NCBI RefSeq assembly: GCF_963921235.1
Contig: NC_086097.1
Location: forward strand, 20,834,001 to 20,898,000
DNA from: Mobula hypostoma
Lineage: Eukaryota
Reading direction: 5' to 3'
Length of the DNA stretch: 64,000 nucleotides
In this document: positions 1 through 64,000 of the stretch, piece after piece
Layout of the letters: each line of letters starts with the position of its first letter
Numbering within the stretch: position 1 is the stretch's first letter
The notes under the pieces: model-generated
The model's database searches: none
What the model saw: the letters and a program-made list of their open reading frames with translations, nothing else
Told to the model about the DNA's origin: nothing
Translations under genes and position numbers: made by a program

Positions 1-1769
1 GGAGCTCCAGAAAGCAGTCCACAGCAGGGGTGATTGATAAGTTCGTGGCCTACGATAGAAGGAGATGAGTTATACAGCTCTTGTTACATGCACATGCAGT
101 TCAACTCTTTGAGTGATTATGCAGAAAGTTTGAAGTTAATAACTCATCTCCTTCTACCTTAGGCGACAAACATATCAATCACCCCTCGTACTGCCCCACC
201 ACTCCAGGGACCTGGGTTCGATCCTGACCTAATGTGTTGCAGGGTGCACTGGTTTCCTCCGGAATCCCAAAGATGTGCTGGCAGGGTAACTGACCGCTGC
301 AAATAGCCCTAACTGACCCTCAGTGTCGGTTAATGGAACAGGAATCAGAGGGGATGCTGCTGGGCATGGGAGGGAGACTGGGTACTGGGAAATAAGCAAA
401 GAGTTCCGACAAAGAGTACATGATCCTGAAAACCCAAACGCAGTGTCTTAGGAACAGCTTTTCCCCTCTGCTATCCAATTTCTGAATGTTCCATGAACCC
501 ATGAACACTAGCTCTCTTTTTCAAAGTTCAAAGTAAATTTAATATCAAAGTATGTATACGTCACCATATACTTACTTTTCTTGTTGGCAGTTTTGCGCTA
601 TTTATTTTTTAAAATATATTCCTAATTGTAACTTATAGTAGTGCTTTATGTTTAACACTGTACTGCTGCAACAAAACAACAAATTTCACGACATTTGACA
701 GTGATAATAAGCATGAATCTCATTCTCCTTCCACAGATTCTGCCTGACCCGCTGAGTGTCTCCAGATCTATTTTTATATTTCATTATGATCTTGCACTTA
801 TAGTTTCCCTGCACTGCACTCTCTGTAAATGTAACACTTTATTCTGTATTCTGTTGTTGTTTTCCTGTGTTCTAGCTCAATGCACTGTGTAACCAGTTGG
901 TCTGTTTGACAAGCTTTTCACCGTATCTCAGTACATGTGACAATAATAAACCAATTCCAATTCCAATAAGGTTTTAGGTCGGGATCTCTCATCAGAACTT
1001 CTATCAGTGCTTTTTTAATCTCCCCTACATTCTCTCCAGTACAACCACATCCTTCCTACAGCGTGGCAATATTTTAAGGGTAGTATAATTACATCAGCAA
1101 TTTTGTACTCAGGTGGGTCCCATCAATGAGGTGAATGGCCAGTAATTCTGAGGGAACGTTTTGTCCCGAAACGTTGACAGTTTATTCCCCTTCGTAGATG
1201 CTGCCTGACCCACTGAATTCTCCACCGTTTTTTTATGTTGCTCGTATTTTTATTTCAGATTACTAGCACTTGCAAGATTTTAGATTTTCATTGAAAACAA
1301 GGTTTTGTTTGGGGACCAGGGGATGCTTTTTTTGTTTTAGAAGGTGAAAAGTGATGGGGAGGCTACAAATTTGAGGGGAAAATGGAGTGAGTGGGCTGCA
1401 CCGTTGCTGGAGCTGCTACCTCATTTAATCCTGATTTAGAGTGCTGCCTATGTGGAGTTTACACGTTTTCCCTGTGACCACACTGGTCTCCTCCCAGGTG
1501 CTCCAGTTTCTTCCCATGTCCCAAAGACGTCTAGGTTGATCAGTTCGATGGCTGCTGTAAGCTACTGTAACTCTGTAAGTGAGTGGTACAGTCTGGGGAG
1601 GGGGGAGCTGATGGGAATGTGGGGAGAATCAATTGTAGGGAATATTGGTTGGGAATGGAATTGTCCTTCAACCCATGGGACAGTGTTGTCCAGGATGACC
1701 TCATAGAAATTTATAAAATAAGGTGGATGGTCACAGCCTTTTCCCCAGGGTTGGGGAAAGGGTATGTAT

Positions 1770-2631
1770 TGTTACAAGGAGGTCTGTGGTTTTTTTTTGG
1801 GAGAATGATGTAATGGTCTTTTGGAGGTCACCTGATGTAATTTTCCCGCTGATGTGAGGTCACGTGATGACGTGCACTACGGGTATATAAGGGAAGACCA
1901 GTTAGTTTTTAGTTTTTAGATTTCCAGCTAGAATGTACTGTGTCTCCGTTTCTGTTGTGTATTTGTTTTGATGATGCAACTTCATTTTTAAAACGGTTGT
2001 TACATTCTGTTGCAAGGTACAATAGTGCTGGATTGGCAATTTTTGCTAGATGTGCTGATTTACCCTATTCCAGCAGTAGTACGGGAGAGTGAAGACTTTA
2101 TCGAAGTACAGAACCCGAAGGATTGAGAGGAGTCGGTATCGTTCGGCAGTTTAACAAAGGATCGACCTTATTGAGTCTTCGTTGAAGGAGTAGTGACCTG
2201 CATGAAAGATAACCCTTGCCAGAAGAGCAAAGAGTTCATGCAAGGTTTGCTCTCTAGAATTTAAGGTCAGTTGTTTTAAACTGTTTATTTCCTGCATTGT
2301 GAACCCTTTGGACAGAACCAACGGGAAAGTCGCATCTATGAAGAAATCCTTCCCCAGAGAAGTCTCTCCCAGTTGAACATATAAATCTGTTGGACTTTTG
2401 AATTTACCATTTTAAGAACTATATCTGACTTTACCGCTTTAAGAACTGTTTTCACATTTAATGCTTTAAGAACTAGTGCCGAGTGACAATTTGTTGAATG
2501 GCTGCATAGCAGTTAACTTCCGGTTAAGGTTTTCGTTTGTTTTTTTGATTGTTTATCCGTGTTTAATAAATGTTTGGTTGTTTTTATATAACCTGTCTCG
2601 ATTGATATTCATTGTTGCCGGTTACGTAACA
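1770..2631 (+). mobile_element. Solo LTR (862 bp)
   Basis: TGTTAC...GTAACA inverted termini, 4-bp TSD GTAT (1766-1769 and 2632-2635), TATATAA at about 1884, AATAAA at about 2565. Interrupts a CR1 3' fragment. Confidence 0.85.
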
Positions 2632-2974
2632 GTATATATAAGAAAAGAGGTAAAAATTTTAAAACAGACCCAAGAGGTAACTTCTTTGCACAGAGGCTGT
2701 TGGATGCCCGGAATGAACTACCAGAAGAAGTAGTTGAGGCATTGGAATGGGTCGAGGGAAGGGAAGGGTTTGGGCTGAACCCAGGCAAGTGGGTCTATCA
2801 GGAATGCTGTGGTCAGCATGAACCAGATGGACTGAATGGCCTGTTTCCAGACTGTATTACTTTATATGACTCTATATGGAAATGTATGATGGAATGAGGT
2901 TGAGGAGCCTCCTCCTGTGACCAAGTTCTCCTGTCAGAGGACAGATATATAAATAATAAATCTCTCCCTCTCAC

Positions 2975-60818: not shown

Positions 60819-61019
60819 CTAAACAAGATGAACAACAAACACAAGACACTTAAATGATTTAAAGCTACAGGTGCAATAAAGCCAAGGGTGCAGTAACAGA
60901 ATTACTGTGAAATTTAAAGAGCAATATCTTGGTTAAAGGCACAGTTTCAACTGAGAATCTTCAGCTATAAATTAAATGCCACAAGTCTTGTTTTTTTTTT
61001 GCAAAGTACATCACATTAC

Positions 61020-61330
61020 AGACATGTAGCCGAGAGCATTCTAATGTGGAGTATCACTGCGTGGTATAGAAACTGCACTGCAGCAGACAGAAGGGGTCTA
61101 CAACGGGGTAGTTAAAACTGTTCACCATCAAGATATACAGAAGAGTGCTGGAAAAAGGCCAGCAATATCATGAAGGATTCCACAACCCTGCTCATGATTT
61201 GTTTATCCAACACGCATTAGGGAAAAGACTAAGCAGATTCTATGCCAGAACTACCAGATTCAAACTGTTAGAAAGGGAAACAGTTTCTTCACCCAGGCTG
61301 TAAGATGACTGAACACCCTGTCACCACCCA
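61020..61330 (+). mobile_element. Degenerate Rex1/Babar-like LINE 3' fragment
   Basis: ESILMWSITAWY-like start, similar to 15890-16230. Confidence 0.55.
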
Positions 61331-64000
61331 GGTCTCATCATGCATGAAGCTCCATTAGCGATATACTGGTTTTTTAAAACTTGTGTTGTGAATACACATT
61401 ATTTGTTAATTTACCAGTAGCAGTATCACTTTGTGTTGTGTGTGAATTTTATGTACTGCATTGCGCACCTTGGTCTGCAGGAGCATCGCTTCGTTTGGTG
61501 GTATATATGTGTGTACGCTTGAGTGACAATAAACGTGAACTTGAAAAACAGTTACTACCCCAAAGTGTCAGGCTGACCAACACCTCCACATTATTTACCC
61601 ACGGCACCACACACCTCCCCACCATTACTTTATCATTTCGCGTCAGTCACCTTATGTATTGATACTCCTGTACCTAGCATCACATTATGTACATATCATC
61701 AGTCTATGGATACAAACTATTCTCACATTTTTAAAATTTATTTTTGTATTGTGTTCTTTACACTTATTGTTTCTATTACGCTGCACTGGGTCCAGAGTAA
61801 TAATAATTTTGTTCCACTTTACACTTGTGCACTGAAGAATATCAAACAACCTTGAATCTTGAATTCAGGCTGAATTAGCATTGTTCCCCCCTCCCCACCC
61901 ACCTTGTCAAAGGGAGAAACCTATTCACATGAAGGGCTTTGTTTTAACAATCATATTGCCATCAGCTTGAATATATCCAACCAGAGGAAAATCCATAGAT
62001 AATTGAGAATCATCCTAATGACCATCCCTGGCTTGTTTTACCTTCAATGCTTGCCAACAAAGATTGGCTTCATTAAGAAATAAGGAACTTTTATTTGATA
62101 TTTCCTGGTCTTAAACTACTTATAATTATTGCTTGCATACATTCATATTGTTTTCATATGCTTGACCTCATTATTTATAAAAATTCACTTGCCCAGTCCT
62201 GCGGGTAATCTGTTAACCCTCAGACTGGTAGAGTGCTGAGAGCAAAGACGTTGAGCTGGATTTGAAAGGTAAAGTAAAATATCAGGGATTAATGTAATCA
62301 ATTAAATCGAAGCAGCAAATATAATTTAATCATATCGGTTGCTAAATGAAGCATATAGAATTAATGCAATGACATGGAAATATAGATGGAAGAACTCTGT
62401 TACAACCAGCACAATAGCAGAATCTTGTGCAGTGTAAAGAAAATAAATACAATATATTGATACAAGAGGTTTTGCAGATGCTGAAAATCCAGAGCAACAC
62501 AAAATGCTGGAGGAACTCAGCAGGTCAGGTAGCATCTATGGAGGGGAATATACAGTTAACTTTTCAGTCCGAGACCTTTCATTCGGACTTGTATCAGCAA
62601 ATTGGGTATACTGATGTTATTTAAGGTTTGGATGGATGTCATGATATATACTGCAATACATTAGACCATAAGTCGTAGGAGCAGAATTAGGCTATTCAGC
62701 CCATTCAGTCTGCTCCACCATTCCATCACGGCTGATTTATTACCCCTCTCACCCCCATTATCTTGCCTTCCTACCCAAAATGACTACTCAAGATCCTATT
62801 AACCCCTGCTTTAAATATACTCAATGACTTGGCTTCCACAGCCATCTGTGGCAATAAATTCCACAGATTCAGCCCACTTTGGGTACTCAACCCACAGCTC
62901 CTCCAGCCATTTATTGATGAGGTACAGCACAGAATAGGTCGCTGGTACTGTAAAGTGTTGTGCTAACCACTATGCTACCATGCCGCCACAAATTTGCTCC
63001 AGGTTCCAGCACAGGTGAGACAGGCAATGTATGACAGAATTAGTTGGTGGTCCAGTAGTTAAGTGACAAGTTCCTTCTGCCTTTTACTTTTCTTCACTTG
63101 ACCCATGTTGTCAGTATAGGAGAGTGGCAACAACGGGATATTGTTGCAAACTGAGGAAACTGGTCATTTGAAGCCAAGGTTCAGTGAAAGTTCTTTCCTC
63201 AGAGTGGCAAATGTATGGAATTCTTCTCCACACACCCCCCCCCCCGCATCTCGCAGATGCAGAAGGGTCTTGGCCCAAAACGTCAACTGTTTAGAAATGA
63301 ATAATGCTGCCTGATCTGCTGATTTCCTCCAGCATTTTGTGCGCGTTGCCCCAGATTATTAGGTTATTTAAGATGGAGATTGATAAATATTTGAAAGGTT
63401 ACAGATTAAGGGCTCTGGGAAACTAGCAGTGAAGTGAGACTAGCACAGATCAGCCATGATTGTATTGAACTTGTAGGTGGCTTGAGGGACCTAGAGGCCC
63501 AACACCTGCTCCAGTTTTCATGTTTGGTCTCAGATTCAGTGGTCATCCAAGATACCACTCCTCTGCAATAGACAAAATGCTGCAGGTACTCATGTCAGGC
63601 AGCACCTATAAAAATGAATAAACAGGCACCAGTTTGGGCTGAGACACTTTAGGACTGCTCCCCTACTACTCTACTTTGAACATTCACAGCCTTTGAATTC
63701 CCAGTATTTGCTGAGGGAGTTAGAGTGGATTTAATCTGGTAACTTTTGCATAAAAACCTAGAATAGCATTCCCTTCAGTGGTCAAGGACAGGAACTATAC
63801 TGCAACCTTCCTATACCACCTCCTTCTACTACCCATTGTGCTTTCCCCTTTTCCTTCTTCACCTTTCCTGCCTATCCCCTCCCTGCTTCCCCTCCCCCAC
63901 CCCTTTATCTCTCCCCTTACTGGTTTTTCACCTGGAACCTACCAGCTTTCTCCTTCCCACCCTCCCCCCACCTTCTTTATAGGGCCTCTGCCCCTTCCCT

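What the first reader, a model, noticed from the sequence alone, without database searches (positions are those of the whole stretch)
1148..63290. Window-wide family of short hammerhead-bearing elements without coding sequence
Seen: the module CTGAYGAAGGGTCTYGGCCCGAAACGTCGAC...GATGCTGCCTGRCCTGCTGAGTTCCTCCAGCA recurs in both orientations, mostly with no Penelope ORF. Approximate positions are 1148(+), 5568(+), 10318(-), 18518(-), 20840(-), 23364(-), 23410(+), 26797(+), 29030(+), 29815(-), 30058(+), 31972(-), 39605(-), 46875(-), 58532(+), 62553(-) and 63257(+). Most cores are mutated. Inference: a non-autonomous, retrozyme-like family mobilised by the Penelope RT/GIY-YIG, reaching roughly one copy per 4 kb here.
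Basis: partly seen in the sequence, partly recalled or inferred. Interest (0 to 1): 0.75.

Follow-up and report, generated by a model that had tools for sequence, protein, structure and literature searches.

The report
Penelope stubs stop at RNA start
The short ribozyme-bearing repeats are real and extremely abundant, but they are one-off stubs of a Penelope-like jumping gene rather than a separate family, and their pile-up at one spot just in front of the ribozyme likely marks where the element's RNA begins, which would help explain how these elements copy themselves and how small ribozyme tandem repeats are born.

Summary
Observation largely confirmed: 22 module copies in 64 kb (15 of the 17 listed positions are strong hits) and about one per 4.6 kb in an 800-kb genome sample. 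The ~135-nt module is the end of an endonuclease-bearing Penelope-like element (PLE): a minimal type I hammerhead plus the 'tail'; the 29030 copy has GIY-YIG sequence upstream. The short copies are not a separate family: they share subfamily markers and clades with long copies, each has its own 5' end, and many have their own 10-17 bp target duplication. Nor are they random truncations: 3' ends fall at two sites, two-armed insertions use one of each (32 of 32), and genome-wide counts lose 32% of copies in the 8 nt before the hammerhead core, with no drop at the cleavage site. Rare junctions, one oligo(A)-tailed, join element sequence to that same spot, suggesting an RNA 5' end. True retrozyme-like tandems exist but are rare and did not spread. 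No RNA data could test this. The scan has reported this family, and the transcript-start idea, several times elsewhere in this genome.

The parts
28130..29180 (+). 5'-truncated young PLE copy: end of ORF with GIY-YIG (28219-28737), ~290-nt pyrimidine-rich UTR, hammerhead, tail and a few bases of ORF start
   Evidence: (98% identical copies genome-wide)
29030..29065 (+). minimal type I hammerhead; core starts at 29034 (position 0), predicted cleavage after 29061 (+27); likely RNA start at 29030 (-4)
   Evidence: start inferred
29127..29164 (+). tail between the two 3' end sites T1 (about +93 to +97) and T2 (about +130); encodes the start of the ORF in tandem copies
   Evidence: E=2e-7
1140..1278 (+). 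old module-only copy
5563..5594 (+). weak hammerhead-like fragment
   Evidence: E=0.021
10255..10404 (-). old module with a weak inverted partner at 10356-10404(+)
18456..18550 (-). diverged module in a GC-rich stretch
20736..20877 (-). old module with UTR remnant upstream
23279..23435 (-). module (-) with a head-to-head half hammerhead at about 23408-23435(+)
24079..25109 (-). older PLE copy: module and UTR (24079-24293) with rearranged endonuclease-coding pieces (24354-25109)
26575..26932 (+). module with ~220 nt of UTR
29757..29861 (-). module with short UTR remnant
30054..30155 (+). internally deleted module
31150..31204 (-). young arm lacking the hammerhead, ends at T1
31431..31557 (-). 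module starting inside the hammerhead, ends at T2
31902..32079 (.). two-armed head-to-head insertion (T1 arm on -, T2 arm on +) with a 15-nt target duplication (1 mismatch)
39512..39700 (.). two-armed head-to-head insertion
46777..46924 (-). module ending at T2 with a short inverted T1 arm
58400..58628 (+). module with ~135 nt of UTR, ends near T1
62460..62591 (-). module-only copy starting at about -4
63259..63362 (+). module-only copy

Best explanation
The short copies are separate, one-off insertions of the terminal module of an abundant Penelope-like retrotransposon, and they likely arise when its reverse transcriptase starts at the tail sites near the front of the element's RNA and runs off that RNA's 5' end about 4 nt before the hammerhead core. 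Shown: the module is the element's end; 3' ends fall at two sites; two-armed insertions use one of each and carry target duplications; 5' ends pile up at -8 to -1, not at the cleavage site. Inferred: the endonuclease makes a 10-17 nt staggered cut, one or both cut ends prime on the same RNA (or same source locus), and synthesis stops at a linear RNA's 5' end, probably a transcription start at an initiator-like motif overlapping stem I. Inferred: sometimes the enzyme jumps from that 5' end to the RNA's 3' end and goes round again, which gives 260-310 bp hammerhead tandems of the non-LTR retrozyme form. Long and full-length copies likely come from a template with no end at that spot (tandem read-through or circular RNA).
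For: Full element with RT, GIY-YIG, the module at both ends and a 12-bp target duplication. 100 consecutive young arms of 64,181 exact matches: 60 stop between +57 and -35; loss per nt 0.019 at +12 to -14 against 0.0005-0.0024 between -35 and -1000. Genome-wide nested exact counts: 12,379 start by 0, 10,278 by -4, 8,449 by -8, 7,676 by -16, i.e. about 4.7% per nt in -1 to -8 and 1.2% per nt beyond; across the cleavage site 95,192 to 92,649 (1.4% per nt), the same as 100,968 to 95,192 just downstream. Target duplications >=10 nt at 36 of 42 two-armed arms (0 of 2000 shuffled) and >=8 nt at 15 of 24 short single arms. 32 of 32 independent two-armed insertions are T1+T2; arms agree at 125 of 134 marker cells against 56% shuffled. 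Short and long copies share all 11 polymorphic columns (lowest p 0.045, uncorrected). Of 69 loci holding the tail-ORF junction, 18 join ORF sequence back to the module, 7 of them at -4 or -5; L274 has an oligo(A) run at that joint, starts at -4 at both passes and has one target duplication. Frangieh et al. 2024 (PMC11167929) showed internal priming at two sites near the ORF start on both target strands in vitro.
Against: No RNA evidence for the start was obtained. The pile-up is a peak with a broad shoulder (+57 to -35), not a single base; only 14 of 64 short young arms end at -7 to -2. The rank correlation between jump site and second-pass end was not significant (rho -0.15, n=11), although 6 of 11 agree within 2 nt if L215's first joint is used. 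The tree shows some clustering of short copies (29 label changes against 36 shuffled, 3 of 500 shuffles as low) and one supported clade of 4 old short copies. Stem I is self-complementary, so some two-armed junctions at -4 could come from fold-back pairing. The young sample covers only 4 Mb of one contig.
Confidence: 0.7

Rival explanations
1. A distinct non-autonomous retrozyme- or SINE-like family, copied from its own short master loci.
For: 112 of 160 usable sampled arms carry only the module; defined 3' ends; sharp 5' edge; some clustering of short copies on the tree and a supported clade of 4 old short copies; hammerhead tandems exist and 2 of 2 tested junctions occur at a second locus. 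Solo modules with their own promoter could be donors and would leave the same products.
Against: No 5' position holds more than 3 of 100 young arms; markers shared with long copies; nearest neighbour of a short copy is a long copy in 31 of 62 cases; junctions of two-armed copies differ from copy to copy; the two tandem junctions have only 6 and 3 matches at 2 loci each, and the paired loci differ at subfamily markers, which points to recurrence rather than spread.
Confidence: 0.1
2. The 5' edge comes from structure, not from an RNA end: the enzyme stalls at the hammerhead, or the new DNA folds back through stem I complementarity.
For: Several two-armed junctions show microhomology within the hammerhead stems; the stop zone spans the whole ribozyme.
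Against: The peak lies at the far (5') side of the fold; single-armed copies with target duplications stop there too; ORF-to-module joints, one oligo(A)-tailed, land there without fold-back; full-length copies cross the same sequence with few stops (2 of 30 against 32 of 82 at +12 to -14, p=9e-4).
Confidence: 0.14
3. Hammerhead self-cleavage sets the 5' end of the short templates.
For: 7 of 64 short young arms end at +26 to +30, 3 exactly at +28.
Against: Genome-wide counts show no drop across the site; those ends overlap CpG decay and stem I microhomology; Frangieh et al. found cleavage dispensable in vitro.
Confidence: 0.03
4. Purely random 5' truncation of full-length templates.
For: Upstream of -35 the loss rate is low and roughly even; Cervera and De la Pena 2014 ascribed lone minimal hammerheads to truncated PLEs.
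Against: Loss rate is about tenfold higher around the module's front edge than upstream and fourfold higher in -1 to -8 than in -9 to -16.
Confidence: 0.03

Closest known systems
Endonuclease-bearing PLEs with pseudo-LTR, inverted 5' copy and one-sided tail (Craig et al. 2021, PMC8557442; Arkhipova et al. 2013, PMC3846280; passages read)
   Same: Single RT + GIY-YIG frame, heavy 5' truncation, partial tandems, head-to-head inverted copies, 30-40 nt tail at one end, target duplications, repeat overlapping the ORF start.
   Different: Scale (roughly 0.75 million arms by extrapolation), majority of copies reduced to the module, and a sharp 5' edge at -8 to -1 that the passages read do not describe.
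Minimal hammerheads of metazoan PLEs (Cervera and De la Pena 2014, PMC4209133; parts 1-2 of 4 read)
   Same: Short stem I, extra base before stem II, palindromic core with no stem III, mostly single copies scattered genome-wide, some pairs close together on opposite strands.
   Different: Far higher copy number than the 4,000-9,000 motifs they report for coelacanth and Xenopus; G-U rather than G-C at the base of stem II in the youngest subfamily.
Poseidon of Anolis in vitro (Frangieh et al. 2024, PMC11167929; parts 1-2 of 4 read)
   Same: Two internal RT start sites bounding the tail; both target strands cut and extended; hammerhead cleavage not needed.
   Different: They did not describe run-off stubs, the one-site-per-arm rule or jumps to the RNA's 3' end in the parts read; this element has a Neptune-type zinc linker.
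Animal non-LTR retrozymes (Cervera and De la Pena 2020, PMC7229834, passages; Li et al. 2026, 10.64898/2026.07.22.740005, parts 1-3 of 5)
   Same: Non-coding, hammerhead-bearing, pLTR-derived; the rare tandems L245, L246 and L272 have the right form (262-310 bp units, hammerhead in each, target duplication).
   Different: Window copies are single or inverted, not tandem, with minimal rather than canonical hammerheads; Li et al. propose local amplification of an inserted end, whereas these tandems contain ORF-start sequence joined to the module edge inside one target duplication, which points to birth during reverse transcription.

Membership tests
EN+ Penelope-like element | RT and C-terminal GIY-YIG in one frame | tested here: met
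   L031 921-aa open frame: RVT_1 E=3.5e-5, GIY-YIG E=0.0024, both under the curated cut-offs; window 28219-28734 GIY-YIG passes the cut-off
EN+ Penelope-like element | pseudo-LTR from partial tandem | tested here: met
   L036 and 43 of 69 tail-ORF loci
EN+ Penelope-like element | inverted 5' copy, one-sided 30-40 nt tail, target duplication | tested here: met
EN+ Penelope-like element | minimal type I hammerhead in the repeat | tested here: met
   core motif and stems by sequence; 43 of 66 young arms intact; no Rfam hit; monomer fold not more stable than shuffles
EN+ Penelope-like element | self-cleavage activity | not testable with these tools
   needs transcription assay
Neptune clade | CX2-5CxxC linker before the endonuclease (PMC8557442 passage) | tested here: met
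   C-X4-C-X2-C in the translation
Neptune clade | RT phylogeny | not tested
   no reference PLE proteins fetched
non-LTR retrozyme | head-to-tail tandem of 150-450 bp units, each with a hammerhead | tested here: not met
   no such tandem among the window arms; met only by rare loci elsewhere (L245, L246, L272)
non-LTR retrozyme | own family with a fixed unit that spreads | tested here: not met
non-LTR retrozyme | expressed as small circular RNA | not testable with these tools
   no RNA holder listed
SINE | fixed 5' head derived from tRNA, 5S or 7SL RNA | tested here: not met
   Rfam finds no such RNA at any module copy; 5' ends vary

The most novel reading that the evidence does not exclude
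The genome holds a nucleotide-level record of the Penelope replication cycle: an RNA starts at the first base of hammerhead stem I; one staggered cut primes up to two DNA copies from the two tail sites of that RNA; most copies run off its 5' end like retroviral strong-stop DNA and are integrated as stubs; and when the enzyme jumps to the RNA's own 3' end it writes a hammerhead tandem in one step, i.e. non-LTR retrozymes are born during reverse transcription without ribozyme cleavage.
Probability: 0.5. Interest if true: 0.7.

Novelty: new member of a known kind. Interest (0 to 1): 0.48.

Why it matters
The element type, its minimal hammerhead and its truncated and inverted copies are known, so there is no new family here. 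The value is mechanistic. Schostak et al. [quoted passage not shown] 2026). Tens of thousands of young insertions here give precise, testable predictions: an RNA 5' end at -4, one priming site per target end, no role for cleavage in the stubs, and tandem birth by template jumping. It also matters for annotation: several hundred thousand short repeats would otherwise be filed as an unknown SINE or MITE.

Tried and rejected
Rfam scan: no hammerhead family hit; minimal variants are apparently outside its models, so this is neutral. Monomer folding of 29022-29070: z=0.08, uninformative. RNA search: no RNA holder listed; contigs of four runs gave a depth profile like copy number and no starts or ends, so expression and circles are untested. 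Target-duplication search on the window's own copies: only 31902-32079 rises clearly above background, the rest are too old. Spliced template: a pyrimidine tract and CAG just before -6 look like a 3' splice site, but short copies share no common upstream exon and the ORF side of the -6 joint lacks GT; rejected as main cause. Same-molecule test on full-length copies: 5' and 3' repeats 98.4% alike within against 97.4% between elements, higher in 12 of 15; weak, cannot separate a circle from tandem read-through. Spread of tandems: 2 junctions tested, 2 loci each. No covariation test of the hammerhead was run; the intact copies printed vary mostly by CpG decay. Literature searches listed no paper on this family in cartilaginous fish or on a run-off edge at the PLE hammerhead; subscription papers, Repbase and Dfam were not searchable, and the supplements of Li et al. 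(one chondrichthyan genome, mean unit 363 bp) were not seen and may list these tandems.
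Full report
Coordinates within the module count from the first C of the hammerhead core (0 = window 29034); predicted cleavage is after +27. An 'arm' is one copy of the module on one strand.

1. Observation. The two motifs recur on both strands. A profile from 9 window copies finds 22 arms at >=18 bits; the reversed window gives nothing better than E=5.8. 15 of the 17 listed positions are strong, one is weak (5568) and one is a half hammerhead seen only by eye (23410). 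Only 3 of 22 keep the core motif. In 80 hand-picked 10-kb pieces from 14 large contigs there are 174 arms at >=20 bits (reversed control 0; 17 pieces have none), one per 4.6 kb, which extrapolates to roughly 0.75 million arms in the 3.48-Gb assembly. One exact 30-mer of the young subfamilies has 64,181 matches.

2. What the module is. Window 28219-28734 encodes a GIY-YIG domain, followed by a 290-nt pyrimidine-rich UTR and the module. The 40 best-scored copies of this kilobase are 97-99% identical and end within a few bases of the module's end. L031 has a 921-aa open frame with RT and GIY-YIG. L036 is a whole element: partial module, ORF, UTR, module, inside a 12-bp target duplication, and there the tail runs on into the ORF start. 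This is the textbook layout of an endonuclease-bearing PLE (PMC8557442, PMC3846280, passages). The hammerhead matches the minimal type of Cervera and De la Pena 2014 by sequence; activity is untested.

3. How much is module-only. Of 179 sampled arms, 160 were usable (19 dropped for lying at a piece edge or aligning elsewhere): 28 reach coding sequence, 10 end in the UTR, 63 end at -25 to +12 (10 of these have pyrimidine-rich upstream DNA and probably hold a diverged UTR) and 59 begin further inside.

4. Is it a separate family? I took the first 100 exact matches on contig C1, unselected for length. 3' ends fall at two sites, T1 (50 arms at +90 to +104) and T2 (48 at +129 to +136), with 2 further out. 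No 5' position holds more than 3 arms. All 11 polymorphic columns are shared by short and long arms (lowest p=0.045, uncorrected). 53 arms have inverted element sequence at the 5' junction, 42 of them complete to a 3' end; 36 of those 42 have a target duplication of 10-17 nt (0 of 2000 shuffled pairs), and 15 of 24 short single arms have one of >=8 nt. The 42 reduce to 32 independent insertions, all T1 on one side and T2 on the other, with arms agreeing at 125 of 134 marker cells (shuffled mean 56%, maximum 73%). On a tree of 62 short and 48 long arms of all ages the label needs 29 changes; shuffles average 36, so there is mild clustering, and one supported clade has 4 old short copies only. 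Short copies are thus products of each subfamily's activity, with a small residual chance of old short-only lineages.

5. Are they random truncations? No. 60 of 100 young arms stop between +57 and -35; loss per nt is 0.019 at +12 to -14 and 0.0005-0.0024 between -35 and -1000. Nested exact patterns of the youngest variant give 12,379, 10,278, 8,449 and 7,676 matches when extended to 0, -4, -8 and -16: 32% lost in 8 nt, then 9% in the next 8 (mutation included). Nested patterns over the cleavage site give 100,968, 95,192 and 92,649 at +32, +28 and +26: 1.5% then 1.4% per nt, no drop.

6. What makes the edge. A 41-mer spanning tail and ORF start has 345 matches; I examined 69 loci. 43 continue into the element body (for 30 loci only 1.5 kb downstream was in hand); their upstream repeats end anywhere out to beyond -1800, and only 6 of 33 at risk stop in +57 to -35 (p=4e-5 against 60 of 100). 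So the sequence itself is no barrier. 18 loci run 200-1400 nt into the ORF and then join back to the module: 7 at -4 or -5, 1 at -6, 8 between -13 and -101, 2 near +40; 8 loci are otherwise rearranged. L274 begins at -4, runs about 1.1 kb, has a run of A, restarts at -4, ends at T1 and lies in one target duplication; L282 is similar without the A run; L220 carries the same private substitution in both modules. The simplest reading is one linear RNA copied from the tail to its 5' end, a jump to its 3' end, and a second pass. The bases around -4 fit the initiator consensus YYANWYY (consensus recalled), and a start inside the pseudo-LTR with an initiator is documented for Drosophila Penelope (PMC2377424, passages). 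Against: the formal correlation of first and second stop was not significant, and no RNA data were available.

7. True retrozyme-like tandems. L246 has four 310-bp units, L245 two 262-bp units, each with a hammerhead and inside a target duplication. Each junction occurs at exactly one other locus, with different flanks and different subfamily markers, so they look recurrent rather than spread. Such loci are about a quarter of 345 matches, against 64,181 arms.

8. Verdict. Real, abundant, ordinary in kind: the ends of a Neptune-like PLE. The family interpretation fails; the non-random anatomy is the interesting part. Earlier notes of this scan reached the stub and transcript-start readings on other DNA of this genome, and I took the transcript-start idea from one of them before testing it; a word search found no note combining it with template jumps and tandems. 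What was added here is the genome-wide placing of the edge, the contrast with full-length copies, and the jump junctions.

Noticed in passing
window 30428-30509 (-): Intact-looking tRNA gene with a GCT anticodon and long variable arm (serine type), 65.8 bits.
   Followed up: no
window 17122-17930: Degenerate ~22-bp minisatellite.
   Followed up: no
window 5747-6927 (-), 12836-13608 (+), 25581-26267 (-), 55293-56234 (-) and others: Many fragments of a LINE RT frame (RVT_1 hits at two of them); CR1-type by recollection.
   Followed up: no
window 18369-18550: A diverged module (-) faces a tail-like stretch (+) tail-to-tail inside a GC- and CpG-rich region (about 17880-19350), unlike the usual head-to-head pairs; possibly an old exapted copy or chance (E=0.023 for the + part).
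   Followed up: no
L031 5222-5646; L218, L229, L247: A 212-bp in-frame-looking tandem duplication in the proline-rich N-terminal part of the PLE ORF is present in some copies only.
   Followed up: partly
G000:C1 400689 and 1823851: Two copies share the same inversion junction (-795 joined to inverted ORF start) with different 3' flanks, so a rearranged element may itself have been re-copied.
   Followed up: no
L246: Units alternate at one CpG (variant, intact, variant, intact), suggesting a two-unit block was duplicated at DNA level after insertion.
   Followed up: no
L242, L258, L259, L274: Short non-templated A-rich additions at ORF-to-module joints, as expected of oligo(A)-tailed RNA ends.
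   Followed up: partly
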